In this document: in pieces, positions 853 through 36,483 of the stretch
How positions within the stretch are numbered: the first letter of the stretch is position 1
Layout of the letters: the number at the start of each line of letters is the position of its first letter
Origin: Octopus sinensis
Lineage: Eukaryota
DNA: 64,000 nucleotides
Direction of reading: 5' to 3'
Assembly: GCF_006345805.1 (NCBI RefSeq)
Contig: NC_043024.1
Location: forward strand, 14,446,001-14,510,000
Notes under the pieces: generated by a model
Databases searched by the model: none
What the model was told of the DNA's origin: nothing
Seen by the model: only the letters and a program-made list of their open reading frames with translations
Program-made: the position numbers and the translations under genes

Positions 853-3800
853 GTATTTCTTCCAATAAAGCCCCAGGCCCATCAGGAATTACTGCAGAGA
901 TGCTCAAAATATCTGGCAGTGTCGGCTATAACCTAGTCACCCGTATAGTCAACCAGGTGATACACGAAGGAGTCATACCCAATGACTGGTGTAGCAGCAT
1001 ACTAGTCAACTGCTACAAAGGTAAAGGTGATGCCCTGGATACAAATAATTACAGAGGTATCAAGCTGTTGGATCAGGTAATGAAGGTTACGGAGAGGGTC
1101 TTAGCCCAACTAATTAGAGAGAGAGTTAGTTTAGATGAGATGCAGTTTGGGTTTGTCCCAGGGAAAAGCACCATGATGCTATATTCCTGGTAAGGCAGCT
1201 GCAGGAGAAATACCTAGCCAAGGATAAGCCCCTGTACCTGGCTTTGTTGACATGGAGAAAGCCTTTGATAGGGTCCCCCGATCCCTCATCTGGTGGTCAA
1301 TGAGGGAACTAGGGATAGATGAATGGCTGGTGAGGGCTGTGCAAGCCATGTACAGAGATGCCGTAAGTAAGGTTAGAGTTGGCAACATGTACACAGAAGA
1401 ATTCAAAGTAGAGGTTGGGGTCCACCAGGGTTCAGTACTCAGCCCCCTCCTATTTATCATAGTCCTCCAGGCAATAACGGAGGAATTCAAGACCGGTTGC
1501 CCCTGGGAGCTCCTCTATGCTGACGACCTCGCTCTAATCGCTGAGTCACTATCAGAACTGGAGGAGAAGTTCCAGGTGTGGAAGGAGGGTTTAGAATCGA
1601 GGGGCCTTAGAGTCAACCTAGCTAAAACCAAAGTACTAATAAGTAGAAAGGTAGAAAACCCACAAATATCATCAGGAAGATGGCCCTGCTCGATCTGTAG
1701 AAAAGGTGTAGGTAGAGAAACTCTATAAGATGTACCCAGTGTAAGCTATGGACACATAAGAGGTGCAGCAATGTCAAAGGTAGGCTAACTGGGAAGATAG
1801 TTTTTGTATGTGGCAGGTGCTCTGGAGCACAGACCTCCGAAAATCTGCAGAAAACAACTTCTGTCACTTTCGGGGGGAAAAACTAGAAGTAGTTGATAGT
1901 TTCCGCTATCTAGGTGACCAAGTCAGTAGTGGGGGTGGGTGCGCTGAAAGTGTAACTGCTAGAATAAGAATAGCCTGGGCAAAGTTTAGGGAGCTCTTAC
2001 CTCTGCTGGTGACTAAAGGCCTCTCGCTCAGAGTAAAGGCAGACTGTATGATGCATGTGTACGAACAGCTATGCTACATGGCAGTGAAACATGGGCCGTG
2101 ACTGCTGAGGACATGCGTAAGCTCGTGAGGAACGAAGCCAGTATGCTCCGATGGATGTGTAATGTCAGTGTACTTACTCGACAGAGCGTTAGTACCTTGA
2201 GAGAAATGTTGTACCTAAGAAGCATCAGTTGTTGTGTGCAAGAGAGACGATTGCGCTGGTATGGTCATGTGGCGAGAATGGATGAAGAGAGGTGTGTGAG
2301 AAAGTGCCAATCCCTAGCAGTTGAGGGAACCCGTGGAAGAGGTAGACCCAGGAAAACCTGGGACGAGGTGGTGAAGCACGACCTTCGGACGTTAGGTCTC
2401 ACCATGGAAATGACTAGAGACCGAGACCTATGGAAGTATGCTGTGCGTGAGAAGACCCGGCAAGACTAGTGAAGCCATAATCCGTGGCCCCTACCTGGAC
2501 GTAGTCAGTCCACCTGTGCATACCTTCCTTCTTGTGACACTTGTGAAGACCTGTTGAGGCAAGTGAGAATAGAATCGAATCGTATCAAATCAAATCGAAA
2601 TAGATGAACATCAATGGAATTTGTATCCTTGTGGTACCAGTGCCGGTGGCACATAAGAAAACCATCCGAACGTGACCGTAGCCAGTACCGCAATGACTGG
2701 CCTCCGTGCTGAGGGCACGTAACAAACACCATCCGAGCGTGGCCGTCCGCCAGCCTCGTCTAGCACCTGTGTCGGTGACACATAAGAAAACACCATCCGA
2801 GCGTGGCCGTCTGCCAGCCTCGTCTGGCACCTGTGTCGGTGGCACATAAAAAACACCATCCGAGCGTGGCCGTCTGCCAGCCTCGTCTGGCACCTGTGTC
2901 GGTGGCACATAAAAAACACCATCCGAGCGTGGCCGTCTGCCAGCCTCGTCTGGCACCTGTGTCGGTGGCACATAAAAAACACCATCCGAGCGTGGCCGTC
3001 TGCCAGCCTCGTCTGGCACCTGTGTCGGTGGCACATAAAATCACCCACTACACTCTCGGAGTGGTTGGCGTTAGGAAGGGCATCCAGCTGTAGAAACACT
3101 GCCACATCTGACTGGCCTGGTGCAGCCTTCGGGCTTCCCAGACCCCAGTTGAACCGTCCAACCCATGCTAGCATGGAAAGCGGACGTTAAACGATGATGA
3201 TGATGATGATGAACTCCAGGATTAATCTTTTCTTGTCTATGTAACAATTGATGACAACAATCAGCTTTTCTGATGTGGAGAGTTAGAGAGCAACACTGCA
3301 GATACTGAACTGTAAAAGTTATATTATGAATGAGCCATGGTTTTCATTTGTAGTACTTGGCATTTTATCTCTTCTACTAAATTGTTTAAGAAATCACGAA
3401 TGTTATTAACTTGCTTTTCTCCCCTAAAAATCTTGTATTTATCCAAAAAAATGTTACTAATATCTCTACTAAATACAGCAGCAAGCCACATCCTGCCATT
3501 AAGTCAATGAATTTAGCTGCTATTGAGATTTTACCTCATGAATTTCAAATGTGACATTTTAATAAATCCCTTTTTAATTCTTGTTTTAGTTGAAAAGTGC
3601 AGATTAATGGATGGAATGGCAAATGGGAAATTGATCCCAGATTCTGATATCTTCATCCCCACTAAGGAATCTCCAGAAGTGCTACGGCCTTCTGGAATAG
3701 GTTGGAAAATAAAGCCATTTACTTTAGCAAAACTTGAAGTTAAAATTGATAACAACATTTTGAAATATGGAGCAGTCGTTATTTTGCGGAAGCATAAAAA

Positions 3801-6800
3801 TGTAGCTCAATTTCTCATAAGTTACGAGACAGAGCATAGAAATGTAATATGGGTAAGTGACATAAATATTTACTTTTATATTAGTTTAACCCTTTAACAT
3901 TCAGATATTTTCTGTCAAACGTAATCCTTATTCTTTCACATTGTTTTAAATTAATTATGCATTATCTTGTGGCTTTGAGATTTTGATGATGTGATTGTTT
4001 ATTTTGAGAATGACGCTGTAGTAATGGAAGGCATTCAATTTGATACTATTCTGATTTAGCTATCTTTGTACTTGTTGTGATGGGACATCTGAGATATCAT
4101 TGTATATTTTAATTAAACTCTGAATAATGAAAAAGAAGAAATAGCACATTCCATTCGGCAAAACATAATCCAAATTTCATTAGAGAATAAAGTCTAAAAT
4201 ATTTAACGTGATGGCACAGATGTGGCCGTGTGGTAAAATCTTGCTTTGAAACCATAAGGTTTCAGGTCAGACCCAGTGAAAAGATGTTAGAGCAATTGCT
4301 GGACAGCCTTGACGTTGGCTCAATTGGACTACTGAAGACCAGACTACAGACAAGAGTGTTGAGCCAATTAAAGTGCTCAGAGGGGGGAGTTAACCCTGTA
4401 CTGCTTATACTGAGGTCTCTTCATTAAATGCAAGCTTTTTCTTTGTTTAGGAAAACAAACAGAATGAATTGGTTTGGTTCTAATTTATTTCTCTGGTGGA
4501 TATTTTGTTGAACTTGACGAGGTATTCACAAAGTCTAAATACAAGACAAGACACTAGGTATTTACTTCACTCTGTAAAGCTGTGTTCTCTTAATATCATA
4601 TCTGGTTCTTTTTTGCAATAGGGTTTCAGAGCAACTGAAAATGGTACCATACCACAAGGAACAAATGCAGACCAGATTCTGATTCGCTTTCGACCGGTAA
4701 ACTCACAGGATGCAATGACTGTCACTCTGTCAATTATTGGCTGTTTCCAAACAATAAGTAAGTTAATCATATTTAATTCTATTTGATGTGCTTCAATGTG
4801 TTACTGCTGTGTTTTGTGTCTGTATGTGTTTGTTTTGTTTGCTTGTTTTTTCTTTTATCTCACATATATGTATGTATTTATATGTATGTATATATATATG
4901 TGTGTGTATATTATTATCGAGATGGTGACTGCACTCCAGAAATAAGACGGCGGATAGTACCAGGCAGAGAGGCTATGGTCAGCATGAGCAGGGTCGGGAA
5001 GAGTAGAGACATCAGACTCACTACTAAATGCAGATTGGTGAACGTAATTGTCTTCCCAATAGCAACATATGGATGCGAGACCTGGACACTAAAGAAAGCT
5101 GACCAGAAGAGAATTAATGCATTCGAGCTTTGGTATTGGAGAAGACTTTTACGAATTCCATGGACAGCGAGGCTCACCAATAGAGAAGTTCTTAAGCAGA
5201 TCAGGCTGAAAACGTCACTAGAAGCTAGGATCACCATATTTTGGTCATATTATGCAGAGAGAATCCCTGGAGAAGGACATCATGCTCAGAATGGTCAGTG
5301 GCAAGAGAAGAAGAGGCCGACCAAGAAACCGCTGGCTTGACACCATCAAGAGTGATACCGGAATGGACATAGCCAATCTTGAAGAAGCGGCCCAGGATAG
5401 AACTGACTGGAGGACACTGATCCAATGAGTAACCGAGAGTCGACTTCGACTGAGTGGATAGTTAGAGAGATATTATTAGCCCAGACACGGCATCCTGACT
5501 ACCAGCAATAGGCTCCCACAGGCTGTGTCTGATAGATCAGAAGACTGTGCAAGCAAGTTCTGCAAACCATTTTGCTTAGAATGGAAGAAGCAGTAGTCAA
5601 GGTGTCAGAAGATTTGACAACAGAAAAAAAAAAAAAACATTGAGTTTAACCAAAATAAAAGAAATTTAATTTAGAGGCAAATAAATATTTAGGAAATAAA
5701 TAGGCAGTTCTTTAGAGAGATCTTTAGAGAGTTCTTTCATTTATCTCTGAAGAGTGTAAATTCCTTTTGGTGAGGTCTTCTTTTATTCAGCAGTCTTCTC
5801 TATCGTTTTTGTTTTCTTATTTTTTTTTTCAAATTGACCCTGTTTTTACTTCCAAATACACTTTAGTCTCGTACCAACTTACATTTTACTCAGCCTCCTA
5901 ATTTTCTCAATGGCATTCCTTTATGGTATTTCTTCCTATAACTCCAGGATGAATCTTGTCTAAGTAACAATTGATGACAACAACCAGATTTTATGATGTG
6001 GAGAATTTGAGACCAACACTGCAGAAACTGAACTGTAAAAGTTATATTATGAATGAGCCATAGTTTTCATTTGTAGTACTTGGCATTTTATCTCTTCTAC
6101 TAATATGTTTAAGAAATCACGAATGTTATTAACTTGCTTTTCTCCCCTACAAATCTTGTATTTATCCAAAAAAATGTTACTAATATCTCTACTTAATACA
6201 GCAGCAAGCCACACCCTGCCATTAAGTCAATGAATTTAGCTGCTATTGAGATTTTACCTCATGAATTTCAAATGTGACATTTTAATAAATCCTTTTTTAA
6301 TTCTTGTTTTAGTTGAAAAGTGCAGATTAATGGATGGAATGGCAAATGGGAAATTGATCCCAGATTCTGATATCTTCCTCCCCACTAAGGAATCTCCAGA
6401 AGTGCTACGGCCATCTGGAATAGGTTGGAAAATAAAGCCATTTGCTGCTTCATCACAACTTGAAGTTAAAATTGATAACAACATTTTGAAATATGGAGCA
6501 GTAGTTATTTTACGGAAGCATAAAAATGTAGATATGTTTTTGATATTTTATCAGGAAGATGATTCAAACGTAATAAGGGTAAGTGATATAAATATTTACT
6601 TTTATAAAAGTTTAACCATTAAACATTCAGATATTTTCTGTCAAACGTAATCCTTATTCTTTCACATTGTTTAAAATTAATTATGCATTATCTTGTGGCT
6701 TTGAGATTTTGATGATGTGATTGTTTATTTTGAGAATGACACAGTAGTAACGGAAGGCATTCAATTTGATGCTATACTGTGTTAGATATCTTTGTACTTG

Positions 6801-9800
6801 TTATGATGGGACATCTGAAATATCATCGTATACTTTAATTGAACACTGAAAAATGGAAAAGAAGAAATAGCACATTCCATTTGGCAAAACATAATCCAAA
6901 TTTCATTAAAGAATAAAGTCTAAAATATTTAACGTTAAGGTGGCCGTGTGGTAAAATCTTGCTTTGAAACCATAAGGTTCCAGGTCAGACCCTGTGAAAA
7001 GATGATAGAGTCATTGCTGGACAACTTTGACGTTGGCTCAATTGGACCACTGAAGACCAATGGTTAAACCAGACTACAGACAAGAATGTTGAGCCAATTA
7101 AAGTGCTCGGAGGGTGGAGTTAACCCTATACTGCTTATACTGAGGTCTCTTCATTAAATGCAAGCTTTTTCTTTGTTTAGGAAAACAAACAGAATCAATT
7201 GCTTTGGTTCTAATTTATTTCTCTGGTGGATATTTTACTGAACTTGACGAGGTATTCACAAAGTCTAAATACAAGACGAGACACTAGGTATTTACTTCAC
7301 TCTGTAAAATGGTGTTCTCTTAATATCATGTTTGGTTCTTTTTTGCAATAGAGTTTCAATGCAACTGAAAATGGTACCTTACCACAAGGAACAAATGTAG
7401 ACCAGATTCGGATTCGCTTTCTATCGGTAAACTCAGAGGAAGCAATGACTGTCACTATGTCAATTATTGCCTGTTTCCAAACAATAAGTAAGTTAATCAT
7501 ATTTAATTCTATTTGATGTGCTTCAATGTGTTACTGCTGTGTTTTGTGTCTGTATGTGTTTGTTTTGTTTGTTTCTTTTTTCTTTTACCTCACATATATA
7601 TATGTATTTATATGTGTGTATATATTATTACTGTACATGCAGCCTCTTGACTACCACCAACAGGCTCCCACAGGCTGTGTCCAATAGCTCAGAATTCTGT
7701 GCAGGAAAGCTCTGCAAACCATTTTGCTTAGGACGGAAGAAACAGTAGTCAAAGAAGACAGAAGAATTGACCCTGTTTTTACTTCCAAATACACTTTAGT
7801 CTCATACCAACTTCATACTCTGCATTCTTTATGTTGCCAAGTTCACGCTGTTTTTGCAGCAAGGTGGGAACCTTCCACCTTACAAAGACACCACTCTACA
7901 CATAAACCAACTCACATTCATCGTCACATCAAACTGGCTTATTACCATTTTCCTTGACACCTAATACTGTGTCAACTGTTCCTCATGCCTGGCACCATGG
8001 CACTTGTTGAGAGCCCCACATCGACCGCATGGCACTGAATACTACAAAAACAATTTACATCAGCTTCCAGCACGAACTCCCAACACAATTTAACTTACCA
8101 CATGTCAATGAGTAGGCTTTATAGTTCACCCAAACAATAAAAAGAATGCCAAAATCCTACTGCCTATGCTTTAAGCAGTAACATATCCACAGTAAATGTT
8201 TTTGTCCTGCCTTGGAAAACCAGAGATCGGTGTTCTAATATGTGTCGTATGAAGGAGAAATTATCTCAATATTATTTTTTGCTCATAACAATATGTTATT
8301 TTTGTATGTCTGGAATTATATGAATACAGAAACACATGCATATGTATTTCACACAGAACATTAAAAAATTTGTTGTATTTGGTCAATATTCTCTTTCATA
8401 ATCAAAAACTGCACATAACTTTAATATTTAATTTCTTTGGACTTAAACACAAACATTGAAAAAAATGAATGACTGAATTTTGAAAAATGCAATTGTAGAA
8501 ACATCTCTGCCATTTTAATGCCATTTTAGAAATTACACAAAATGAGTAAACATAGTTTCTAGTGCTACATTTTGTATCTGCCTAAATGTAAAATGAGTTA
8601 TCTATTTTGCATTTCCAGCACCATCAAGCCCAACACCATATTTAGGATTGAGTCCAACAGGTTAGTAAATATTACCTTGAACTAAAACAATTTATATGCT
8701 ACCATTTCAATTCATTGTGTATATGTGTATCAGTACAAATGCATGGACATCTATATATCTTCATGTCAATATGGGGGGATATCAGAATCTGGGATAAGTA
8801 AGTTAATCACCTTTAATTCTATTTGATGTGCTTCAATGTGTTACTGCTGTGTTTTGTGTCTGTTTGTGTTTGTTTTGTTTGCTTCTTTTCTTTTTTCTTT
8901 TACCTCACATATATATATGTATTTATATGTGTGTATATATTATTATCCCACATGCAGCCTCCTGATTACCACCAACAGGCTCCCACAGGCTGTGTCCAAT
9001 AGCTCAGAATTCTGTGCAGGAAAGTTCTGCAAACCATCTTTCTTAGAACGGAAGAAACAGTAGTCAAAGAAGACAGAAGGTTTGACAATAAAGAAAAACC
9101 GTTGAGTTTAACTAAAATAAAAGAAATTTAATTTAGAGGCAAATAAATGTTTAGGGAATAAATAGTGAGTTCTTTAGAGAGATCTTTAGAGAGTTCTTTC
9201 ATTTATCTCTGAAGAGTGTAGATTCCTTTTGCTGAGCTCTTCTTTTATTCAGAAGTCTTTTTTACCTTTTTTGCTCCCTTCTTTTTTTTTTTTTTTGACT
9301 TGACTCTGTTTTTACTTCCAAATACACTTTAGTCTGGTACCAACTTCATACTCTGCATTCTTTATGTTGCCAAGTTCACACTATTTTTACAGCAAGGTGG
9401 AAACCTTCCACCTTACAAAGACACCACTGTACACATAAACCAACTCACATTCACAGTCACATCCAACTGACTTATTACTGTTTTCCTTGACACCCAATAC
9501 TGTGTCAAGTGTTCCTCATGTCTGGCACCATGGCACTTGTTGACAGCCTCACTTCGACCGCATGGCACTGAATACTACATAAACAATTCACATTGGCTTC
9601 CAGCACGAACTCCCAACACAATTTAACTTACCACATATCAAAGAGTAGGCTTTATACTTTGCCCAAACAGTAAAATAGAATGCCAAAATCCTACTGCCTA
9701 TGCTTTAAACAGCAACATAACCACAGTAAATGTTTTTGTCCTGCCTTGGAAAACCAGAGATTAGTGTTCTAATATGCGTCGTACAAAGGAGAAATTATCT

Positions 9801-12800
9801 CAATATCATTTTTTGCTCATAACAATATGTTATTTTTGTATGTGTGTTATTACATGAATACAGAAACACAATCATAAGCATTTCACTCACAACATGAAAA
9901 AAAACTGCTGTATTTGGTCAATACTCTCTTTCATAATCAAAAACTGCACATAACTTAAATATTTAATTTCTTTGGACTTAAACACTGTTAGAAAGAAAAT
10001 GAAAGACTGAAATTTGAAAAAGGCAATTGTGGAAACATCTCTACCATTTTAGAAATTACGCAAAATGAGTAAACATAGTTTCTAGTGCTATAATTTGTAT
10101 CTGCCTAAATGTAAAATGAGTTATCTACTTTGCATTTCCAGCAACATCAAGCCCAACACCATATTTAGGACCGAGTCCAACAGGTTAGTAATTATCAACA
10201 TGAATTCAAACCTTTTATATGCTAACATTTCAATTCATTGTTTATGTTTATGTATCAGTACAAATGCATGGACAAATCTTGTATTTACCAAAACAATATT
10301 TTACTAATGTCTCTACTAAATACAGCAGCAAGCCACACCCTGCCATTAAGTCAAGGAATTTAGCTGCTATTGAGATTTTACCTCATGAATTTCAAATGTG
10401 AGATTTTAATAAATCCATTTTAATTCTTGTTTTAGTTGAAAAGTGCAGATTTATGGATGGAATGGCAAATGGGAAATTGATCCCAGATTCTGATATCTTC
10501 CTCCCCACTAAGGAATCTCCAGAAGTGCTACGGCCATCTGGAATAGGTTGGAAAATAAAGCCATTTGCTGCTTCATCACAACTTGAAGTTAAAATTGATA
10601 ACAACATTTTGAAATATGGAGCAGTAGTTATTTTACGGAAGCATAAAAATGTAGATATGTTTTTGATATTTTATCAGGAAGATGATTCAAACGTAATAAG
10701 GGTAAGTGATATAAATATTTACTTTTATAAAAGTTTAACCATTAAACATTCAGATATTTTCTGTCAAATGTAATCCTTATTCTTTCACATTGTTTAAAAT
10801 TAATTATGCATTATCTTGTGGCTTTGAGATTTTGATGATGTGATTGTTTATTTTGAGAATGACACTGTAGTAACGGAAGGCATTCAATTTGATGCTATAC
10901 TGTGTTAGATATCTTTGTACTTGTTATGATGGGACATCTGAAATATCATCGTATACTTTAATTGAACACTGAAAAATGGAAAAGAAGAAATAGCACATTC
11001 CATTTGGCAAAACATAATCCAAATTTCATTAGAGAATAAAGTCTAAAATATTTAACGTTAAGGTGGCCGTGTGGTAAAATCTTGCTTTGAAACCATAAGG
11101 TTCCAGGTCAGACCATGTGAAAAGATGATAGAGTCATTGCTGGACAACTTTGACGTTGGCTCAATTGGACCACTGAAGACCAATGGTTAAACCAGACTAC
11201 AGACAAGAATGTTGAGCCAATTAAAGTGCTCGGAGGGTGGAGTTAACCCTGTACTGCTTATACTGAGGTCTCTTCATTAAATGCAAGCTTTTTCTTTGTT
11301 TAGGAAAACAAACAGAATGAATTGCTTTGGTTCTAATTTATTTCTCTGGTGGATATTTTACTAAACTTGACGAGGTATTCACAAAGTCTAAATACAAGAC
11401 GAGACACTAGGTATTTACTTCACTCTGTAAAATGGTGTTCTCTTAATATCATGTTTGGTTCTTTTTTGCAATAGGGTTTCAATGCAACTGAAAATGGTAC
11501 CTTACCACAAGGAACAAATGTAGACCAGATTCGGATTCGCTTTCGACCGGTAAACTCAGAGGAAGCAATGACTGTCACTCTGTCAATTATTGCCTGTTTC
11601 CAAACAATAAGTAAGTTAATCATATTTAATTCTATTTCATGTGCTTCAATGTGTTACTGCTGTGTTTTGTGTCTCTATGTGTTTGTTTTGTTTGTTTCTT
11701 TTTTCTTTTATCTCACACATGTATGTATATATATATATGTTGTGTGTATATCATTATCGAGATGGTGACTGCACTCCAGAAATAAGACGGCGGATAGTAC
11801 CAGGCAGAGAGGCTATGGTCAGCATGAGCAGGGTCTGGAAGAGTAGAGACATCAGTCTCACTACTAAATGCAGATTGGTGAACGTAATTGTCTTCCCAAT
11901 AGCAACATATGGATGCGAGACCTGGACACTAAAGAAAGCTGACCAGAAGAGAATTAATGCATTCGAGCTTTGGTATTGGAGAAGACTTTTACGAATTCCA
12001 TGGACAGCGAGGCTCACCAATAGAGAAGTTCTTAAGCAGATCAGGCTGAAAACGTCACTAGAAGCTAGGATCACCATATTTTGGTCATATTATGCAGAAA
12101 GATTCCCTGGAGAAGGACATCATGCTCAGAATGGTCAGTGGCAAGAGAAGAAGAGGCCGACCAAGAAACCGCTGGCTTGACACCATCAAGAGTGATACCG
12201 GAATGGACATAGCCAATCTGGAAGAAGCGGCCCAGGATAGAACTGACTGGAGGACACTGATCCAATGAGTAACCGAGAGTCAACTTCGACTGAGTGGATA
12301 GTTAGAGAGATATTATTAGCCCAGACACGGCATCCTGACTACCAGCAATAGGCTCCCACAGGCTGTGTCTGATAGATCAGAAGACTGTGCAAGCAAGTTC
12401 TGCAAACCATTTTGCTTAGAATGGAAGAAGCAGTAGTCAAGGAGTCAGAAGATTTGACAAAGGAAAAAAAAAAAACATTGAGTTTAACCAAAATAAAAGA
12501 AATTTAAGTTAGAGGCAAATAAATATTTAGGAAATAAATAGGCAGTTCTTTAGAGAGATCTTTAGAGAGTTCTTTCATTTATCTCTGAAGAGTGTAAATT
12601 CCTTTTGGTGAGCTCTTCTTTTATTCAGCAGTCTTCTCTATCGTTTTTGTTTTCTTATTTTTTTTTTTTCAAATTGACCCTGTTTTTACTTCCAAATACA
12701 CTTTAATCTCGTACCAACTTACATTTTACTCAGCCTCCTAATTTTCTCAATGGCATTCCTTTATGGTATTTCTTCCTATAACTCCAGGATGAATCTTGTC

Positions 12801-15800
12801 TAAGTAACAATTGATGACAACAACCAGATTTTATGATGTGGAGAGTTAGAGAGCAACACTGCAGAAACTGAACTGTAAAAGTTATATTATGAATGAGCCA
12901 TAGTTTTCATTTGTAGTACTTGGCATTTTATCTCTTCTACTAATATGTTTAAGAAATCACGAATGTTATTAACTTGCTTTTCTCCCCTACAAATCTTGTA
13001 TTTATCCAAAAAAATGTTACTAATATCTCTACTTAATACAGCAGCAAGCCACACCCTGCCATTAAGTCAAGGAATTTAGCTGCTATTGAGATTTTACCTC
13101 ATGAATTTCAAATGTGACATTTTAATAAATCCTTTTTTAATTCTTGTTTTAGTTGAAAAGTGCAGATTTATGGATGGAATGGCAAATGGGAAATTGATCC
13201 CAGATTCTGATATCTTCCTCCCCACTAAGGAATCTCCAGAAGTGCTACGGCCATCTGGAATAGGTTGGAAAATAAAGCCATTTGCTGCTTCATCACAACT
13301 TGAAGTTAAAATTGATAACAACATTTTGAAATATGGAGCAGTAGTTATTTTACGGAAGCATAAAAATGTAGATATGTTTTTGATATTTTATCAGGAAGAT
13401 GATTCAAACGTAATAAGGGTAAGTGATATAAATATTTACTTTTATAAAAGTTTAACCATTAAACATTCAGATATTTTTTGTCAAACGTAATCCTTATTCT
13501 TTCACATTGTTTAAAATTAATTATGCATTATCTTGTGGCTTTGAGATTTTGATGATGTGATTGTTTATTTTGAGAATGACACTGTAGTAACGGAAGGCAT
13601 TCAATTTGATGCTATACTGTGTTAGATATCTTTGTACTTGTTATGATGGGACATCTGAAATATCATCGTATACTTTAATTGAACACTGAAAAATGGAAAA
13701 GAAGAAATAGCACATTCCATTTGGCAAAACATAATCCAAATTTCATTAGAGAATAAAGTCTAAAATATTTAACGTTAAGGTGGCCGTGTGGTAAAATCTT
13801 GCTTTGAAACCATAAGGTTCCAGGTCAGACCATGTGAAAAGATGATAGAGTCATTGCTGGACAACTTTGACGTTGGCTCAATTGGACCACTGAAGACCAA
13901 TGGTTAAACCAGACTACAGACAAGAATGTTGAGCCAATTAAAGTGCTCGGAGGGTGGAGTTAACCCTGTACTGCTTATACTGAGGTCTCTTCATTAAATG
14001 CAAGCTTTTTCTTGTTTAGGAAAACAAACAGAATGAATTGCTTTGGTTCTAATTTATTTCTCTGGTGGATATTTTACTAAACTTGACGAGGTATTCACAA
14101 AGTCTAAATACAAGACGAGACACTAGGTATTTACTTCACTCTGTAAAATGGTGTTCTCTTAATATCATGTTTGGTTCTTTTTTGCAATAGGGTTTCAATG
14201 CAACTGAAAATGGTACCTTACCACAAGGAACAAATGTAGACCAGATTCGGATTCGCTTTCGACCGGTAAACTCAGAGGAAGCAATGACTGTCACTCTGTC
14301 AATTATTGCCTGTTTCCAAACAATAAGTAAGTTAATCATATTTAATTCTATTTCATGTGCTTCAATGTGTTACTGCTGTGTTTTGTGTCTCTATGTGTTT
14401 GTTTTATTTGCTTGTTTTTTCTTTTACCTCACATATATGTATGTATTTATATGTATGTACATATATATGTGTGTGTATATTATTATCGAGATGGTGACTG
14501 CACTCCAGAAATAAGACGGCGGATAGTACCAGGCAGAGAGGCTATGGTCAGCATATGGTCAGCAAGAACTCCCAACACAATTTAACTTACCACATGTCAA
14601 TGAGTAGGCTTTATAGTTCACCCAAACAATAAAAAGAATGTCTAAATCACACTTCCTGTGCTGTAAGCAGTAACATACCCACAGTAAATGTTTTTGTCCT
14701 GTCTTGGAAAACCAGAGATTAATGTTCTAATATGCGTCGTACGAAGGAGAAATTATCTCAATATTATTTTTTGCTCATAACAATATGTTATTTTTGTATG
14801 TCTGGAATTATATGAATACAGAAACACATGCATATGTATTTCACACAGAACATTAAAAAATTTGTTGTATTTGGTCAATATTCTCTTTCATAATCAAAAA
14901 CTCCACATAACTGTAGCATTTAATTTCTTTGGACTTAAACATGAACATTGAAAGAAATGCAAAACTGAAATTTGAAAAAGGCAATTGTAGAAACATCTCT
15001 GCAATTTTAATGCCATTTTAGAAATTACACAAAATGAGTAAACATAGTTTCTAGTGCTACATTTTGTATCTGCCTAAATGTAAAATGAGTTATCTACTTT
15101 GCATTTCCAGCACCATCAAGCCCAACACCATATTTAGGATCGAGTCCAACAGGTTAGTAAATATTGCCTTGAATTCAAATCATTTATATGCTAACATTTC
15201 AATTCATTGTTTATGTTTGTGTATCAGTACAAATGCATGGACAAATCTTGTATTTACCAAAACAATATTTTACTAATGTCTCTACTAAATACAGCAGCAA
15301 GCCACGCCCTGCCATTAAGTCAATGAATTTAGCTGCTATTGAGATTTTACCTCATGAATTTCAAATGTGTGTGTGTATGTATCAGTACAAATGCATGGAC
15401 ATCTATCTATCTTCATGTCAATATGGTGGGGAATATGAATATTAGGTTATATGATTCTGTAAATGTGTGGAGATATTTCACCATATATTTATGTATTGTA
15501 TATGCGTGTGCTTTGATATGTATGGAGATACTCTCCCAATTTCTCTTTCCTCCCACTACATCATCATTATCATCTCATCGTTTAACGTCTATTTTCCATG
15601 CTAGCACGGGTTGGACTGTTCGACCGGGGTCTGGGAAGCCAGGAGGCTGCAACCAGGCTCCAGTCTGATCTGGCAGAGTTTCTACAGCTGGATGCCCTTC
15701 CTAACGCCAACCACTCCATGAGTGTAGTGGGTGCTTTTTACGTGCCACCGGCACAGGTGCCAGGGGTGTCTGGCAGTGGCCACGATCGGTTGGTGTCGAG

Positions 15801-21306: not shown

Positions 21307-24300
21307 ACAAACACATACATACTTACATATGTACACATATATTCATATATACACTCACACAGCAACAAAACCAGCAAAAATATTTTGGAATTAAAAAAAA
21401 CTTACATTTTCAGTGGTTCTCTTTTTGTTAATTGACATGAATGTTGGCTGGAATGGTTGAGATGGTATAGATTGGTATATATACTGGTATACAAAGAGGA
21501 GCTGGTATATATATACAGAACTTAACTAAAAGAGATAAAAAAAGAGCCAATATATTTTGTTAATGCATTCCACACACATCAAATGTCAATTTTAATATCT
21601 AACCAGTTAGCACTTCATGAATGGCACAAAGTGAAAGTAAATGATAAGAAGCAAATTTGGAAAAGGCAATAGGGGGAAAATGTATGTCACATTTGTGCCA
21701 TTTTGAAAATTAACAAAAGAAAGAAATCAAGGGTTTTAAGTCACATCATTAGGGAGGAAACGATTGACTGGGAGTCTGCTTGAGTTATGAATGTGTATTT
21801 TGTTTTGTCTTAAATGCAGCATGGAATAAAATATCTATTTTCAATTTCCAGCATCAACCGTATCAATGCCATATTCAGAATCCACAGTAACAGGTTTGTA
21901 CATATTATCACGAATTAAAAAGACTTATATCATTTAATTCATCAGGTGGGTGTGTGTATATGTGTGTGTTTGTGACTGTATGTAAATGAAAAGTGACTGC
22001 AAAAGTAAATGATAAGAAGCAAATTTGGAAAAGGCAATAGTGGCGACATGTATGTCAAATTAACACCATATTGAAAATTACCGAAAGAAAAGAATCATGA
22101 TGTTTCAGCCTCATCATTAGTAGGGAAACGATTGACTGAGAGTTTGCTGCAATTATGAATGTGTATTTTATCAGGTCATTTAGAATAGAATGTCTGATTT
22201 TGAACTGAAAGTTTATTTTACTTTATCTCAACGAAAAGCAATGAAGTTAATCAAAGTATGCGCCTAAATTATCAACATAATTTTGCCATTTTATCAGTAG
22301 CTCATTGATGCCAGCAGCAAAAGATTCTGGAGAGCAAGAAGTGATGATGAAATCACAAAAGGCTGTTTTTGCATCTTATTCAGATTTGCAAAAAGTTGCC
22401 TGGAAAACAAGAGAGTCAGTTGGTCCAAGGACTGGAGAATATGGTGGATGACAGAGTACTTCCATGTTCAGTTCCTGTAACCTGAGTAGTGATCTTTGTG
22501 CAAAATGTGGTCAAGCATTGTCTTGCAAGAGAATTGGCCTGTCTCTATCAACCAATGTTGGTTGTTTAATGGCAAGTGAACTCATCATTTCATCTAGTTG
22601 GTTGATGTATACATCTGCTGTAGTGGATAACACCAGGGCTGGACCACCAAACAGACACCATTAGCTCTGATGAAAGTAGCATTAATTTCCTTAGGTTGTT
22701 CAGTTCTCCTCAATTGATCAATAGGCCAGTTGGGTAAACCTGTCTCTAAATGTACCTATAATGACTACTGGACACAAATGGAAACAAAGTTGGCTCTGAT
22801 AAAGGCAAAATATGTAATGACCATCACTGTTAACTTCTTTCTGATATAATTTGGGAAAGGCATGAGTGGAAACATGTATGTCACATTTGTGCCATTTTGA
22901 AAATTACTAAAAGAAAGGAACCAAGGTTTTTCAGCCAGATCAGTGGGGAAGAAACGATTGAGTGAGAGTCTGTTTGAGTTATAAATGTGTATTTTATTTT
23001 GTCTTAAATGCAGTATGGAATAAGATATCTATTTTCAATTTCCAGCATCATCCGTATCAATACCATATCCAGAATCCACAGTAACAGGTTCGTACATATT
23101 ATCATGAATTTAATTCATCAGGTGAATATGTGTTTGTATGTGTGTGTAGGTGTGTGTGTGTATGTAAGAACTACTTGTATAAAATATTATACAATATGGT
23201 GTTGAATATATCAACACCATATTCAGAATCTACAGCAACAGGTTTGTTCATATTCTCATGGATTAAAAAGACTTTGTAATTTATCAGGTGGGGGCATGTG
23301 TGTGGCGTGTGTGTATGAGAGTGTTTTTGACTGTATAACATGTGTGTGTGTGTGTATTGTGTGTATGCATTTTGTATGTGTACATTTTTGTGTGAGTGTA
23401 AATTGCAAGTTTGTGCATGCGCGTGTATTTATGTCAGAACTCCTAGTATAATATATTGAGAAAATCAGAAATTCAACAAGTAGGTGCAGGAGTGGTTGTG
23501 TGGTAAGTAGCTTGCTAACCAACCACATGGTTCCGGGTTCAGTCCCACTGCATGGTATCTTGGTAAGTCTCTTCTACTATAGCCTCAGGCCAACCAAAGC
23601 CTTGTGAGTGGATTTGGTAGACGTAAACCAAAAGAACCCCATCGTATATATATGTGTGGTATAATATATATATGTGTGTGGTGTGTGTGTGTGTAAATAT
23701 ATGTGAGTATATGTTTATTTGTCTTTGTTTGCTCTGATAAAGGCAAAATATGTAATGACCATCACTGTTGACTTCTTTCTGTTATAATTTGAGAAATGCA
23801 ATAGTGGAAAAATGTATGTCACATTTGTGCCATTTTGAAAATTACCAAAAGAAAGGAACCAAGGCTTTTCAGCCAGATCAGTGGTGAAGAAACGATTGAG
23901 TGAGACTTTGCTTGAGTTTTAGATGTGTATTTTATTGTCTTAAATGCAGTATGGAATAAGATATCCATTTTCAATTTCCAGCATCATCCGTATCAATGCC
24001 ATATTCAGAATCCACAGTAACAGGTTTGTACCTATTGTTATGAATTAAAAACACTTTGTGTGATAAAATTTAATTCATCAAGTGTGTTTGTGACTGTATG
24101 TAAATGATAAGTGACTGTAAAAGCAAATTATAAGAAGAAGCAAATTTGGAAAAGGCAATAGTGGAAACGTGCCAGTGGCACGTGAAGAAAAACATTCAAG
24201 CAAGGTCATTGCCAGTACCGCCTGAGTGGCCTTCGTGCCGGGGGCACGTAAAAGTACCCACTACATTATTGGAGTGGTTGGCGTTAGGAAGGGCATCCAG

Positions 24301-26078
24301 CTGTAGAAACTTTGCCAGATAAAGATTGGAGCCTAGTGCAGCCATCAGGTTCGCCAGTCCTCAGTCAGATCGTCCAACCCATGCTAGCATGGAAAGCGGG
24401 CGTTAAATGATGATGATGATGTATGTATGTATGTCACATTAACACCATATTGAAAATTACTGAAAGTAAAGAATCATGATGTTTCAGCCTCATCATTAGG
24501 AGGGAAACGATTGACTGAGAGTTTGCTGCAATTATGAATGTGTATTTTATCAGGTCATTAAGAATAGAATGTCTGATTTTGAGGTGAAATTTTATTTTAC
24601 TTTATCTCAATGAAAAGCAATGAAGGTAATCAAAGTTTGCACCTAAATTATCAATACAATTTTGCCATTTTATCAGTAGCTTATTAATGCCAGCAGCAAA
24701 GGATTCTGGAGAGCAAGATGTGATGATGAAATCACAAAAGGCTGTTTTTGCATCTTATTCAGATTTGCAAAAAGTTGTCTAATGCCTGGAAAACAGGATT
24801 GTCAGTTGATGCAAGGTCTGGAGAATATGGTGGATGACAGAGTACTTCCATGTTCAGTTCCTGTAACCTGAGTAGTGTTCTTTGTGCAAAATGTGGTCAA
24901 GCATTGTCTTGCAAGAGAATTGGCCTGTCTCTATCAACCAATGTTGGTTGTTTAATTGCAAGTGAACTCATCATTTCATCTAGTTGGTTGATGTATACAT
25001 CTGCTGTAATTGACTTACCAGGCCTCATGAAGCTGTAGTGGATAACACCAGGGCTGGACCACCAAACAGACACCATTAGCTCTGATGAAAGTAGCATTAA
25101 TTTCCTTAGGTTGTTCAGTTCTCTTCAATTGATCAATAGTCCAGTTGGGTAAACCTGTCTCTAAATGTACCTATAATGACTACTGGACACAAATGGAAAC
25201 AAAGTTGGCTCTGATAAAGGTAAAATATGTAATGACCATCACTGTTAATTCCTTTCTGATATAATTTGGGAAAGGGATAAGTGGAAACATGTATGTCACA
25301 TTTGTGCCATTTTGAAAATTACCAAAAGAAAGGAACCAATGTTTTTCAGCCAGATCAGTGGGGAAGAAACGATTGAGTGAGAGTCTGCTTGAGTTATAAA
25401 TGTGTATTTTATTTTGTCTTAAATGCAGTATGGAATAAGATATCTATTTTCAATTTCCAGCATCATCCGTATCAATACCATATTCAGAATCCACAGTAAC
25501 AGGTTTGTACATATTAGCATGAATTTAATTCATCAGGTGAATATGTGTTTGTATGTGTGTGTAGGTGTGTGTGTGTATGTAAGAATTACTTGTATAAAAT
25601 ATTATACAATATGGTGTTGAATATATCAACACCATATTCAGAATCTACAGCAACAGGTTTGTTCATATTCTCATGGATTAAAAAGACTTTGTAATTTATC
25701 AGGTGGGGGCATGTGTGTGCGTGTGTGTATGAGAGTGTTTTTGACTGTATATACATGTGTGTGTGTGTGTATTTGTGTGTATGCATTTTTGTATGTGTAC
25801 ATTTTTGTGTGAGTGTAAATTTGCAAGTTTGTGCATGCGCGTGTATTTATGTCAGAACTCCTAGTATAATATATTGAGAAAATCAAAAATTCAACAAGTA
25901 GGTGCAGGAGTGGTTGTGTGGTAAGTAGCTTGCTAACCAACCACATGGTTCCGGGTTCAGTCCCACTGCATGGTATCTTGGTAAGTCTCTTCTACTATAG
26001 CCTCAGGCCAACCAAAGCCTTGTGAGTGGATTTGGTAGACGTAAACCAAAAGAACCCCATCGTATATATATGTGTGTG

Positions 26079-26113
<35 letters not shown>

Positions 26114-26838
26114 AAATATATGTGAGTATATGTTTATTTGTCTTTGTTTGCTCTGATAAAGGCAAAATATGTAATGACCATCACTGTTGACTTCTTTCTG
26201 TTATAATTTGAGAAATGCAATAGTGGAAAAATGTATGTCAGATTTGTGCCATTTTGAAAATTACCAAAAGAAAGGAACCAAGGTTTTTAAGCCAGATCAG
26301 TGGAGAAGAAACGATTGAGTGAGACTTTGCTTGAGTTTTAGATGTGTATTTTATTGTCTTAAATGCAGTATGGAATAAGGTATCTATTTTCAATTTCCAG
26401 CATCATCCGTATCAATACCATATTCAGAATCCACAGTAACAGGTTTGTACATATTATCATGAATTAAAAACACTCTGTGTGATATCATTTAATTCATTAG
26501 GTGAATGTATGTGTGCATGTGTATGTATGCATGTGTGTGTGTATGTGTGTGTTTGTGTTTGCATGTACATTTGTGTATATGTGTGTGCACACATGCATGT
26601 ATGTGTTGTTTTTCTGTGTGTCGATTTTTTTTCCACCATCTTCCTTTTCTCTTGGACTCTCCTGTCTCCTTTTCTGAAGAAGAGCTTTGGTTGAAACGTA
26701 AAACTACCTTTCTTCCCTTCCCTGAGCATCTCTTAATACTTTACGTACCACGTACACGTTCGACTTGTTTTTTTTTGTGCTTGTTTTATGTTTTTGGGGA
26801 TTTACTATATATATAATATATATATATATATATGTGTG

Positions 26839-26872
<34 letters not shown>

Positions 26873-26873
26873 C

Positions 26874-26906
<33 letters not shown>

Positions 26907-26947
26907 TATTTAGATATATATATATATATATTTAGATATATAATATA

Positions 26948-26989
<42 letters not shown>

Positions 26990-27010
26990 GATATATATAT
27001 ATATAATTAT

Positions 27011-27045
<35 letters not shown>

Positions 27046-29954
27046 ATATATATATATATAGTAAATCCCCAAAAACATAAAACAAGCACAAAAAAAAACA
27101 AGTCGAAGACGTGGTACGTATAAAGTATTAAGAGATGCTCAGGGAAGGGAAGAAAGGTAGTTTTACGTTTCAACCAAAGCTCTTCTTCAGAAAAAGGAGA
27201 CAGGAGAGTCCAAGAGAAAAGGAAGATGGTGGAAAAAATATATATATATATATTTAGATATATATATAATATATTCGCGGTTCGCCCGCCCTCCCCCACC
27301 CCCACCACCCATACCGGAGAACACTCTGTTTACACCATCCCCTCTACCACCGCCACCACTACGTGTGTCTGTTCCTCCTACCCCTCCTCCTCAATATACT
27401 TTCTCACTATATATTTACCCCTGCCTCTCTCCCCCTGGACAGAAGCAGCTAGCGCCGCAGCTCATCAAACGTCCCACTTAACCTGTTATCTTATGTTCCT
27501 CCTGTTTGAAATGTGTCACTGCCTCAACCGGCTATCTCCTTCCAGCCCCCTCCCCCACTCGTGATATCCTACGTTTTACTTCCTACTTTTCATTCTGTCT
27601 AGAACCTGCCACCAACCCTACCTGTCATCGTTTCTCTTTACCCCAAACCTTCCCCACTGGTGCTCCCCTATATTACATGCACCCCCCCACTCTCTCTCCC
27701 TCTCTTCTCTCTGCCGGAACCTGCCGCAATGCAACGAAAAAGGCAATAACCGATCGTGGCCGATGCCAGACCCCTCTGGCACCTGTGCAGGTGGCACGTA
27801 AAAAGCACCCACTACACTCGCGGAGTGGTTGGCGTTAGGAAGGGCATCCAGCTGTAGAAACACTGCCAGATCAGACTGGAGCCTGGGGCAGCCCCTGGCT
27901 CCCCAGACCCCGGTCAAACCGTCCAACCCGTGCTAGCGCGGAAAACGGACGTTAAACGATGATGATGATGATGATGATATATATATATTGAGTATAGTCA
28001 CATTTATTGACAATTATAATTCCTGTTTTTGGTGAAACATTTCAACCTATTGTTTATATTAATTTTGTGTATACACATTAGCTAATTGCTAAATTATCCA
28101 TCAATTTGGATGGCGAAAACATAAATACTAATGGAGAAACAGATCCAGAAAAAAATCAAACACCAGACAGACTTAACTGATAAAACAACAGAAATTGCCA
28201 AAACTGGCATCAGTCTTAAGAATTCTTCGTTGGCATTTTTCAGACAATTATGGTCCCTGTTGGTGTATATGTTTTCATTCATGTGCCCCAACTACAGCAT
28301 GAGACCATTTTAGTCTTTATTTCTAGCAATATAAGTGTTTTTCAACATCCTAATCACAGTTAGTGACATAAATATATATACATACATACATACATACGTA
28401 CATACATATATATATCTATACATCGCCGTGATAGATCGTTAGCCACTACACACATTTTTTTCTCTCCTTGTTTTTTCTGTGTCCCTTTCTATGGAAGAGC
28501 GTAGGCTCGAAACGTAAAAGACTTTTTCTATTTCTATTCCTGAGCGCTATACTAATACATCTGTTTGTTTTGTACTCCACCTGCCTTCGTCTTTTGTGTT
28601 TTTTATGTAAACTCTCCCTACATATATATAGGCACATGTAGGCTCAGGCATGGCTATGTGGTAAGTAGCTTGCTTACCAACCACATGGTTCCAGGTTCAG
28701 TATCACTGCATGGCACCTAGGGCATGTGTCTTCTACTATAGCCTCGGGCCGACAAAAAGCCTTTTGAGTGGATTTGATTGACAGAAACTGAAAGAAGTGC
28801 ATCGTATATACATGTATATATTTGTGTGTCAGTGTTTGTCCTCCACCATCGTTTGACAACCGAGCAAAAAAGACCGATAGAATAAGTACTAGGCTTGCAA
28901 AGAATAAGTCCTGGGGACAATTTGTTCAACTAAAAGCAGTGTTGTGGCATGGCTGCAGTCAAATAACAAAAACAAGTAAAAGAATATATATATATATATA
29001 ACCTGTCTATATAACCTATATATGTAACCTGCCTTCTTCTGTTCTCTACTCTACTTGAACGGTTCCATCATCTCCTCCTCCTTCCTCACACAATAGCCAT
29101 TCCTCCAGTACTCTGCTTCTTATAACCAGAAATGGTTCTGATGAAAGTAGCATTAATTTCCTTAGGTTTTTCAGTTCTCTTCAATTGGCCAATAGACCAG
29201 TTGGGTAAACCTGTCTCTAAATGTACCTATAATGACTACTGGACACAACTGGTAGCAAAGTTGGCTCTGACAAAGGCAAAATATGTAATGACCATCACTG
29301 TTAACTTCTTTCTGATATAATTTGGGAAAGGCATAAGTGGAAAAGTGTATGTCACATTTGTGCCATTTTGAAAATTACCAACAGAAAGGAACCAAGGTTT
29401 TTAAGCCAGATCAGTGGAGAAGAAACGATTGAGTGAGAGTCTGCTTGAGTTATAAATGTGTATTTTATTTTGTCTTAAATGCAGTATGGAATAAGATATC
29501 TATTTTCAATTTCCAGCACCATCCGTATCAATACCATATTCAGAATCCACAGTAACAGGTTCGTACATATTATCATAAATTAAAAACACTCTGTGTGATA
29601 TCATTTAATTCATTAGGTGAATGTATGTGTGCATGTGTATGTATGCATGTGTGTGTGTATGTGTGTGTTTGTGTTTGCATGTACATTTGTGTATATGTGT
29701 GTGCAGGTGTGTATATGTGTGTGCAGGTGTGTACATGTGTGCGCACACACATGCATGTAAGTGTTTTTTTTTTGTGTGTCAATTTTTTTCCTCCATCTTC
29801 CTTTTCTATTGGACTTTCATCTGTTTCTGAAGAAGAGCTTTGATCAAAATGTAAATCACCTTTCTTTCCTTCCCTGAGTACCTGCTAATACTTTACACTT
29901 ACCGTGTCCGCGAGTTGTTGTTTATTTGTTTGTTCTTTGTGTTTTTGAATTTAC

Positions 29955-29997
<43 letters not shown>

Positions 29998-31056
29998 GAG
30001 ATATGTTACAAAAAGAAAATAGAAACTACACATGGTAATGTAAGGGGAAAGTAAGAAGAAAAATAAGTGAAAATGCACATTGGAAATCAAAAAAAGTAAA
30101 GGTTTTTTATGCAAAGTAACGAAAGATATATACAATTAGGAATAAAAGTAATAAAAGTCATTACTGTGAATTGTTAAAGAGATTCAAAAGCATACCAGTT
30201 TCGTGAATTTACTAATCATTGCTTTGAATACAACTATTCATTGCTTTATTGAGTATAATCACATTTATCGACAATTATAATTCCTGTTTTTGGTGAAATA
30301 TTGCAACCTGCTGTTTATATTAATCTTGTGTATACAACACATTAGCAAATAGCCAAATCACCCATCAACTTGGATGAAGAAAACATAAATACTAATAGAG
30401 AAACAGGTCCAGAAAAATCTGAATACCAAGTGGACTTAATTGATAAGACAATGGAAATTACCAAGACTGTCGTCAAGAATTCTTAGTCGACATTTTTCAG
30501 ACATTTATGGTCCCTGTTAGTGTATGTTTTCATTCATGTACCTTCACTACAGCATTAGAGCATTTTAACCTTTATTTCTAGCAATGTAAGTGTTTCTTGA
30601 CATCCTAACCACATTTAATGATAATAATATATATGTATATAGGCGCAGGAGTGGCTGTGTGGTAAGTAGCTTGTCTACCAACCACATGCTTCCGGGTTCA
30701 GTCCCACTGCGTGGCACCTTGGGCAAGTGTCTTCTACTATAGCCTCGGGCCGACCAAAGCCTTGTGAGTGGATTTGGTAGTTGGAAACTGAAAGAAACCT
30801 GTTGTATATATGTATATATATATATGTGTGTGTTTGTGTGTCTGTATTTGTCCCCTATAATTGCTTGACAACCGATGCTGGTGTGTTTATGTCCCCATTA
30901 CTTAGTTGTTCGGCAAAGGAGAACGATAGAATAAGTACTGGGCTTACAAAAGAATAAGTCCTGATTAAAGGTGGTGCTCCAGCATGGCCACAGTCAAATG
31001 ACTGAAACAAGTAAAAGAATAAAAGAGTTATATATATATGTATATATATATATATG

Positions 31057-31109
<53 letters not shown>

Positions 31110-32244
31110 CCTGTCTATAACTAATTTAGAGACGAACTACCATTCCACAACTCAGTCAATGAAGAACCTGTCCAGAACCATGCTGTGAGACATATACCAT
31201 GCAAAATACTAATCTAAAATTTTAGTATTTTATAGAGATTGAACAGTAAGATTATTACAATCATATAATATAGAAGAGCAAATACTTTCAAAATCTCAGC
31301 GAATACCATACAAAGAAACATTCATCGTAAAAATATTAACCTAAAATCAAATAAAGTATAAATTGAACAATAAAAATTAATAAAGTAATATCTTTATATA
31401 TAAAAGTGAAGTTGTGTGAGTGTCTGTCTCCTACGATTTAGATTGTTAACTACTCCCACATTTTGCGGTGCAGTTTAACCAAAAGCGGGTATCTTATAGT
31501 CGTGATTCATACCCCTTCTGGGTATTAGCGCACGTCTACGATGAGTCTACGATTTTAAAAATAATTTACCATCATTTTTTTCCATTTTAATGCATTTTTC
31601 CGCTATTATATAAGGGAAGTAACTCTCTAAAAATGTCTACGATGAGTCAACGATTTAAAAAAAATTTACCATAATTTTTTTTCCATTTTTAATGCATTTT
31701 TTTGCTATTTTTTGGCTATAATGCTCTAAAAATGCTTTATAGTTACTTCCCTTACAAACCCGAGCAACGCCGGGCGATACTGCTAGTAATCTATAAAAGT
31801 AAGTACTTGTACATTGACTACGCACGTTTCATGGCTGCATTAGGACTATATAATATAGTTTATGGTTGTTCGTCTCTACATTAGTTATATACATATATTA
31901 TATATTATATTATAAAGTTCAGTCAAATATTATTATACTGAATTTTACCTGTAAGGTTGGAATAATAATTTATTCCTTAATAATAGTATTATTATTATAT
32001 ATAACCTGTCTATATAACCTATATATGTAACCTGTCTTCTTCTGTTCTCTATTCGACTTGAATGTTTCCATCTTCCATCTCCGCTTACCTCCCCCATACA
32101 ATAGCCATTTCTCCTGTGCTTTGCTTGTTATTACCAGGAAAGGCTCTGAAGAATGCAGCATTAATTTTGTTCAGTTTTCCGAGCCAAATTTACTCCTATA
32201 AGAAAAAATATATAATGACCTTTATTTTTAACTTGTTTCTGGTA

Positions 32245-32291
<47 letters not shown>

Positions 32292-36396: not shown

Positions 36397-36483
<87 letters not shown>

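What the first reader, a model, noticed from the sequence alone, without database searches (positions are those of the whole stretch)
3590..14326. Duplicated domains diverge almost only by amino-acid-changing substitutions
Seen by codon comparison: exon B1 vs B3 differs at 7 codons, all non-synonymous (R/N, I/L, A/V, L/R, Q/E, D/E, G/A), none synonymous. B2 vs B3 differs at 4 codons, all non-synonymous. A1 vs A2 differences cluster in two patches (TLAK vs [21 protein letters not shown] vs [16 protein letters not shown]) while the rest of the exon and the introns are nearly identical. R to N creates a new N-A-T sequon. Inference: diversifying selection on a binding surface, as in pathogen- or gamete-recognition proteins, or patchy gene conversion.
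Basis: partly seen in the sequence, partly recalled or inferred. Interest (0 to 1): 0.75.

Follow-up and report, generated by a model that had tools for sequence, protein, structure and literature searches.

The report
Octopus mucin domains diversifying one face
These are tandemly copied exons for a predicted discoidin-fold domain in what is likely one giant octopus mucin gene; overall they change about as fast as their introns, but amino-acid changes pile up on one predicted outer face, likely because selection keeps the copies different while gene conversion blends the rest.

Summary
The exons and most quoted differences are real; the headline is overstated. The window holds 4 of 8 near-identical two-exon domain copies plus a diverged ninth, predicted to fold as a discoidin (F5/8 type C) sandwich. 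They lie in a SCO-spondin-like mucin locus of an octopus genome. Exon A1 vs A2 has 6 purely synonymous codons among 20 that differ, and the A-B introns differ by 6.3%. Over all 8 copies dN/dS is 1.1-1.4 and not above 1. What survives is local: codons 73-91 carry about 3.5 times the intron density of amino-acid changes. Neutral simulations with gene conversion reached that peak in 5 of 4,374 runs (relaxed) and 0 of 4,788 (partly constrained); a pairwise old-duplication model gave up to 3.6%. Variable residues from three separate segments map to the outer face of the five-stranded sheet (13 of 17 vs 1 of 10 on the other sheet). Best reading: selection for divergence on that face under gene conversion (about 0.6). 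Ligand and tissue are untested. A new example of a known pattern.

The parts
3590..3852 (+). Exon A of unit u3 (class I), phase 1 to 0, first 87 codons of the domain
   Evidence: AG/GT ends, open frame
3805..3852 (+). Class I form of the main variable patch (alignment codons 73-88; predicted strand beta4, turn, start of beta5)
3853..4621 (+). A-B intron of u3, used as neutral baseline; 6.2-6.3% different from the class II introns
4622..4757 (+). Exon B of u3, phase 0 to 1
6313..6578 (+). Exon A of u4 (class II, one extra codon); small patch at 6441-6458, main patch at 6531-6578
   Evidence: a 354-nt contig of RNA-guessed run X20 joins this exon to exon B
7352..7487 (+). Exon B of u4; new N-x-T sequon at its third codon
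8619..8660 (+). 42-nt Pro/Thr/Ser linker exon, phase 1-1 (copies at 10142-10183 and 15111-15152)
   Evidence: the same peptide is in the O. vulgaris model P0001
10436..10701 (+). Exon A of u5 (class II)
11475..11610 (+). Exon B of u5
13153..13418 (+). Exon A of u6 (coding sequence identical to u5)
14191..14326 (+). Exon B of u6
21852..38753 (+). Ten 42-nt Ser/Thr/Pro-rich linker exons of a second type (starts 21852, 23046, 23982, 25461, 26401, 29517, 34409, 35128, 35386, 38712); splicing inferred from AG/GT ends
49216..49487 (+). Exon A of a diverged ninth domain unit (38% identical to A1)
   Evidence: encodes part of P0009, O. sinensis LOC118768321
53955..54084 (+). Exon B of the ninth unit (46% identical to B1)

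Best explanation
[quoted passage not shown] Shown: 8 intact copies, four patch types, mosaic ancestry, a local excess of amino-acid change. Predicted: the fold and the face, from a model of the ninth unit. Inferred: that the whole 14.29-14.83 Mb locus is one gene; that the protein polymerises into mucus; that the face binds a partner, so one chain would carry several specificities. My guess at the partner (no call tests it): a microbial or parasite surface molecule about 0.4, a mucus or adhesion partner including neighbouring domains about 0.35, a reproductive partner about 0.15, other 0.1.
For: Peak: 22.5 non-synonymous variants in codons 73-91, 0.51-0.53 per site vs 0.14 in the intron; scan-corrected P=0.0003-0.0007. 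Forward simulations with duplication and conversion reached it in 5 of 4,374 accepted relaxed runs and 0 of 4,788 accepted partly constrained runs. M2a vs M1a LRT 12.8-15.3; 5 of 167 null runs with conversion reached 14.2. Fold: pLDDT 76.7, neuropilin b domain Z 10.7, rmsd 3.5 over 123 residues. Face: 13 of 17 outward positions of the five-stranded sheet vary, vs 1 of 10 on the three-stranded sheet, P=0.0013. Leaving out the main patch, 7 of 9 vary, with 8 non-synonymous and 0 synonymous variants, 0.47 vs 0.15 non-coding, P=0.006. In strand beta4 the core positions 72, 75, 77 are invariant and 79 is Tyr/Phe while 73, 74, 76, 78, 80 vary. Recombination: PHI-like P=0.0005. The patch in more distant organism E reads almost like copy u7, which argues against a mutation hotspot (read by hand). 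Raised divergence around a selected site under conversion is the pattern described in PMC3924837 (passages).
Against: Whole-domain omega is not above 1. Synonymous variants are also raised in the patch (0.44-0.54 per site), so dN/dS inside it is about 0.9-1.2. A pairwise neutral model with an old duplication gave such an exon peak in 0.2-3.6% of runs and somewhere in the unit in up to 8.2%, and u7's upstream intron is only about 80% identical to the others, so old tracts exist; u7 also shows peaks in non-coding DNA. Under a fully relaxed null the total N count and N/S ratio are ordinary (P 0.46-0.68 and 0.16-0.20). Inward strand positions are not below the non-coding rate (0.17 vs 0.15). The face assignment comes from a 32-41% identical paralogue, hydrophobicity in distant homologues and published strand order, not from coordinates, and I had seen the variable sites before classifying. 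Known discoidin ligands bind the top loops, not this face (PMC4332414). Only 7 distinct sequences; simulation settings are my own.
Confidence: 0.6

Rival explanations
1. Relaxed constraint plus conversion mosaic: the exposed residues evolve neutrally, and the patch is an old tract that conversion has missed by chance (or one taken from a lost, older copy).
For: Overall omega about 1.2 and N density equal to the intron's; synonymous sites raised in the same patch; old non-coding tracts in u7; up to 3.6% (exon) or 8.2% (anywhere) in the pairwise neutral model.
Against: 5 of 4,374 relaxed multi-copy runs reached the peak; excess on the same predicted face outside the patch and across a 775-nt intron, P=0.006; no further donor copy among the 10 exon A matches in the genome (a lower bound).
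Confidence: 0.3
2. Local mutation hotspot or multi-nucleotide mutation events at the 3' end of exon A, with no selection.
For: Several codons differ at 2-3 positions (74, 76, 78, 81, 84); both S and N are raised.
Against: By hand, organism E and u7 differ at only 3 of 48 nt in codons 73-88, below the roughly 7-12% seen elsewhere for E's contigs; in/out alternation along the strand.
Confidence: 0.06
3. Assembly artefact: the classes are alleles or errors placed in tandem.
For: u5 and u6 have identical coding sequence, so the exact copy number could be wrong; no laid contig spans the stretch.
Against: Run X1 holds both a 0-difference and a 26-difference contig over 6473-6651; organism B (X2) holds four patch types and organism D (X8) both main types; introns differ by 6%.
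Confidence: 0.04

Closest known systems
Invertebrate gel-forming mucins related to SCO-spondin and hemolectin (Lang et al. 2016, PMC4948705; passages read)
   Same: [quoted passage not shown] The O. bimaculoides match to the third VWD is named SCO-spondin.
   Different: Here at least 9 discoidin-like units, too diverged for Pfam, 8 of them near-identical; no further VWD found after them, unlike the 3+2 hemolectin layout; no cystine knot found.
Oyster sperm bindin F-lectin repeats (review PMC5712786; passages read)
   Same: Tandem jelly-roll domains in a mollusc, each split by an intron, diversified by recombination and selected surface sites.
   Different: Bindin's selected sites ring the fucose pocket; here the F-type lectin motif is absent in 8 of 8 copies, the variable sites map to a sheet face, and the host protein is a mucin.
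Abalone VERL repeats (PMC2704960; passages read)
   Same: A repeat array homogenised by conversion or unequal crossing-over, with selected parts escaping.
   Different: In VERL whole repeats 1 and 2 escape; here a part of each repeat does. Different fold (VERL's ZP-N fold is recalled); no known partner here.
Divergence peaks under gene conversion, e.g. red/green opsin exon 5 (PMC3924837; passages read)
   Same: A narrow peak of divergence in an exon flanked by less diverged introns.
   Different: Between domains of one gene, not two genes; no functional residue is known here.

Membership tests
Discoidin / F5/8 type C domain | Eight-stranded jelly-roll sandwich | tested here: met
   Model of the ninth unit P0009, pLDDT 76.7; neuropilin b domain Z 10.7, rmsd 3.5, 123 aligned, tied with DOC and CBM32 domains of the same fold; Foldseek best E 2e-4. 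The close copies themselves were not folded.
Discoidin / F5/8 type C domain | Cysteine pair at the N- and C-termini | tested here: met
   Exactly two Cys, at 3 and 128/129, in 8 of 8 copies; the bond itself is inferred from PMC4332414
Discoidin / F5/8 type C domain | Sequence match to Pfam F5_F8_type_C | tested here: not met
   No Pfam family for 5 of 5 exon pieces or for P0001 and P0009. ESM Atlas feature hits at 0.92 include PF00754 clusters. So it is discoidin-like by fold, not a PF00754 member.
F-type lectin | Fucose-binding motif H-x24-R-x-D-x4-R/K | tested here: not met
   Absent in 8 of 8 copies with spacing 24-28 allowed; motif from PMC5712786
Gel-forming mucin, SCO-spondin-like | Three N-terminal VWD-C8-TIL units | tested here: met
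   Same-strand Pfam hits upstream: VWD at 14296370, 14326001/14333259, 14352970; C8 and TIL after each, some exon pieces below the cut-off
Gel-forming mucin, SCO-spondin-like | PTS-rich region | tested here: met
   Many Pro/Thr/Ser linker exons; 1,182-codon frame at 14708822 with 66% P/T/S after residue 170
Gel-forming mucin, SCO-spondin-like | LDLa upstream, TSP1/TIL/VWC downstream | tested here: met
   LDLa at 14374020; three TSP1, TIL and a sub-threshold VWC at 14.795-14.828 Mb
Gel-forming mucin, SCO-spondin-like | C-terminal cystine knot | tested here: inconclusive
   None of the 9 PF00007 matches at E up to 1 lies at this locus; split exons could hide it
Gel-forming mucin, SCO-spondin-like | All parts in one transcript; secretion, glycosylation, gel formation | not testable with these tools
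   Only the A-to-B junction is seen, in one contig of an RNA-guessed run of organism E; NCBI models the ninth unit as a separate short gene
Repeat arrays under diversifying selection (bindin/VERL type) | omega above 1 at a subset of sites, robust to recombination | tested here: inconclusive
   LRT 14.2, reached by 5 of 167 null runs with conversion; peak and face tests favour it; patch-internal dN/dS is about 1
Repeat arrays under diversifying selection (bindin/VERL type) | A known co-evolving binding partner | not testable with these tools
   No partner or tissue data

The most novel reading that the evidence does not exclude
One octopus mucin chain carries a repertoire of discoidin-like domains with different specificities, built on the five-stranded sheet face instead of the usual top loops, diversified by positive selection, reshuffled between repeats by gene conversion, and tuned by a glycan gained only in class II copies: a built-in variable recognition array in mucus.
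Probability: 0.25. Interest if true: 0.62.

Novelty: new member of a known kind. Interest (0 to 1): 0.36.

Why it matters
If selection is real, it points to a functional surface on a lophotrochozoan mucin domain that Pfam does not model, and gives a small testable set of natural variants (class I, class II, u7, u8) for finding what invertebrate mucus proteins recognise. The evolutionary pattern itself is known from bindin, VERL and opsins. If the neutral rival holds, it is an ordinary young repeat array and a warning that zero synonymous changes among 4-8 is expected by chance.

Tried and rejected
Pfam on the domain exons: nothing. Second homologue search with P0001 residues 74-190: 0 of 56 candidates scored. 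Single-sequence fold of P0009 was unusable, pLDDT 48.9; the alignment-based model was used. Hits P0003, P0006, P0007, P0008 and other non-animal rows were set aside as matches to the duplicated N-terminal part or chance; I checked only P0003's sequence and the names. A possible micro-exon near 4451 was rejected: the X20 contig length fits a direct A-to-B join (22-247 on exon A, plus 39, 9 and 59 nt = 354) and P0001 joins directly. The second filter (dispersion at most 1.6) was set below the observed 2.23 and is ignored. The null was over-diverged (0.094 vs 0.054 non-coding); its 2 of 86 is pooled's 3 of 81. Sequencing runs: no RNA holder listed; X20 is only guessed to be RNA. Earlier findings: none by place or sequence. 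Literature: no paper with octopus + mucin + discoidin; searches listed none on this gene or on selection in these domains, judged from listings; subscription journals are not searched. PMC11431876 reports SCO-spondin-like proteins in O. vulgaris skin mucus (passages); its supplement could not be read, so whether they are this gene is open. No complex prediction was run, as no partner is proposed.
Full report
What is there. The window is G000:C28:14446001-14510000. An O. sinensis protein model encoded in it lies on a contig of the same length, and the closest outside protein is an O. vulgaris model, P0001. The finding covers four copies of a module made of exon A (263 or 266 nt), an intron of about 775 nt and exon B (136 nt). 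Genome searches gave 10 exon A and 9 exon B matches: 8 close copies (u1, u2 just upstream; u3-u6 in the window; u7, u8 about 200 kb downstream), a diverged ninth unit at window 49216-54084, and one exon A match on contig C2. All 8 close copies have open frames, GT-AG ends and one in-frame 3-nt indel only. The module is phase 1-1, as are the 42-nt Pro/Thr/Ser linker exons between units. A 354-nt contig from RNA-guessed run X20 (organism E) joins exon A to exon B, and that run has no cover in the unique intron.

Gene context. On the same strand upstream lie EGF, three VWD-C8-TIL units and LDLa; downstream lie a 1,182-codon PTS frame, three TSP1, TIL and a weak VWC. The third VWD exon is 98% identical to an O. 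bimaculoides protein named SCO-spondin. This matches the invertebrate mucin-like proteins of Lang et al. (PMC4948705, passages). That all of it is one gene is inferred from strand, order and phase. Distant domain homologues occur in a chiton mucin-2-like protein and in flatworm repeat proteins.

Fold. Pfam finds nothing. The ESM Atlas gives F5/8 type C clusters at 0.92. An alignment-based model of the ninth unit (pLDDT 76.7) matches neuropilin b domains (Z 10.7, rmsd 3.5, 123 aligned) and other discoidin, DOC and CBM32 domains. A shared fold shows no function, and the F-type lectin motif is absent in 8 of 8 copies.

The exon B counts and the sequon are right, but 0 synonymous of 8 has P=0.07 and of 4 has P=0.28. 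Exon A1 vs A2 has 6 purely synonymous codons of 20 differing, and the introns differ by 6.3%. Across 8 copies there are 12.5 synonymous and 46.5 non-synonymous variants, ratio 1.1-1.4 per site, P at least 0.17; N density 0.16 equals the intron's 0.14. One-ratio omega is 1.24-1.26, LRT against 1 is 0.5. The title claim fails.

The local signal. Codons 73-91 hold 22.5 N variants (0.51-0.53 per site) and 5.5 S variants (0.44-0.54 per site); outside the two patches N density is 0.08, below the intron (P=0.012-0.02). Scan-corrected permutation P is 0.0003-0.0007. The copies are mosaics: 91 informative sites, 29% of pairs incompatible, PHI-like P=0.0005. I therefore calibrated against conversion. 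A pairwise neutral model gave the exon peak in 0 of 2,118 accepted runs without conversion, 0-0.3% for a duplication age of 0.15 and 0.2-3.6% for 0.3-0.6, up to 8.2% anywhere in the unit; u7's upstream intron at about 80% identity shows such ages are possible. Seven-copy forward simulations reached the peak in 5 of 4,374 accepted runs (of 7,630 run) with fully relaxed exons and 0 of 4,788 accepted (of 8,999) with 44% of codons constrained; runs were accepted if non-coding divergence matched. u6 was left out of these and of the codon models as identical to u5 in coding sequence. M2a beats M1a (LRT 12.8-15.3, nominal P 0.0005-0.002), but 5 of 167 null runs with conversion reached 14.2, so the honest P is about 0.03.

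Where the changes fall. Using the model's strands, the published sheet order (beta1-2-7-4-5 and beta6-3-8; PMC4332414 and PMC5947257, passages) and hydrophobicity in six distant homologues to call in or out, 13 of 17 outward positions of the five-stranded sheet vary, against 1 of 10 on the three-stranded sheet (P=0.0013). Without the main patch it is 7 of 9, with 8 N and 0 S variants, 0.47 per site vs 0.15 non-coding (P=0.006). Three separate segments, one across the intron, would meet on one face. Limits: no coordinates were available, the template is 32-41% identical, the rule misplaces some positions (80, 86, 91 were called inward), inward positions are not below the non-coding rate (0.17), and I had seen the variable sites first.

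Relatives. Organism B holds four patch types and organism D both main types, with class II nearly unchanged, so the classes are not errors of this assembly and predate those splits. In the more distant organism E the one patch type seen is close to u7. Counting by hand from that state, the class I branch has about 11 N and 1 S change in codons 73-88; that ratio alone is not significant (P about 0.2), but the density is far above half the intron divergence. If class I is older than E's split, part of this is old divergence kept through conversion, which still suggests something protects it.

Mechanism and verdict. Most likely (0.6): duplication of a symmetric exon module, continued conversion or unequal crossing-over, purifying selection on part of the domain, and selection for difference on one exposed face, which drags linked synonymous sites up, as described for opsins (PMC3924837, passages). 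Rival (0.3): relaxed surface plus a chance old tract. The partner is a guess; O. vulgaris skin mucus contains SCO-spondin-like proteins (PMC11431876, passages; supplement unread), not tied to this gene. The pattern parallels oyster bindin and abalone VERL. My searches listed no report on this array. New member of a known kind; interest 0.36.

Noticed in passing
L010 (G000:C2:31303625-31303843): A second locus with the same discoidin-like exon A (34% identity), near VWD matches at C2:31278003 and a cystine-knot match at C2:31353981: likely a paralogous mucin gene.
   Followed up: partly
P0002 (Macrostomum lignano): A 5,655-aa protein of about 30 almost identical repeats of a related domain plus Thr-rich linker, and chiton P0004 with several near-identical copies: the same domain family forms homogenised arrays in other lophotrochozoans. 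No Pfam model covers the domain in P0001, P0004, P0009, P0010 or P0012.
   Followed up: partly
window 4920-5460 and 11760-12300: A reverse-transcriptase-like LINE fragment (read by eye frames) sits after exon B in u1, u2, u3 and u5 and was duplicated with the unit; u3 and u5 share 97.8% identity over 2.87 kb downstream although their exons are of different classes.
   Followed up: partly
G000:C28:14509570-14652057 (beyond the window's right end): Dozens of further tandemly duplicated 21-36 nt linker exons; one uses a GC donor (window 63600-63620).
   Followed up: no
window 880-2470: 5'-truncated, frameshifted LINE-type reverse transcriptase remnant upstream of u3 (by eye).
   Followed up: no
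window 50600-51700: Decayed integrase-like retrotransposon fragment in the intron of the ninth unit (by eye; label recalled).
   Followed up: no
window 19080-20400 and 58850-59470: An AT-rich self-complementary stretch with an internal duplication, and a near-exact duplication of about 300 nt flanked by TA runs; possibly repeats or assembly duplications.
   Followed up: no
L066:6826-7707 and L070:247-1500: C2H2 zinc-finger-like open frames just past the mucin locus (by eye).
   Followed up: no
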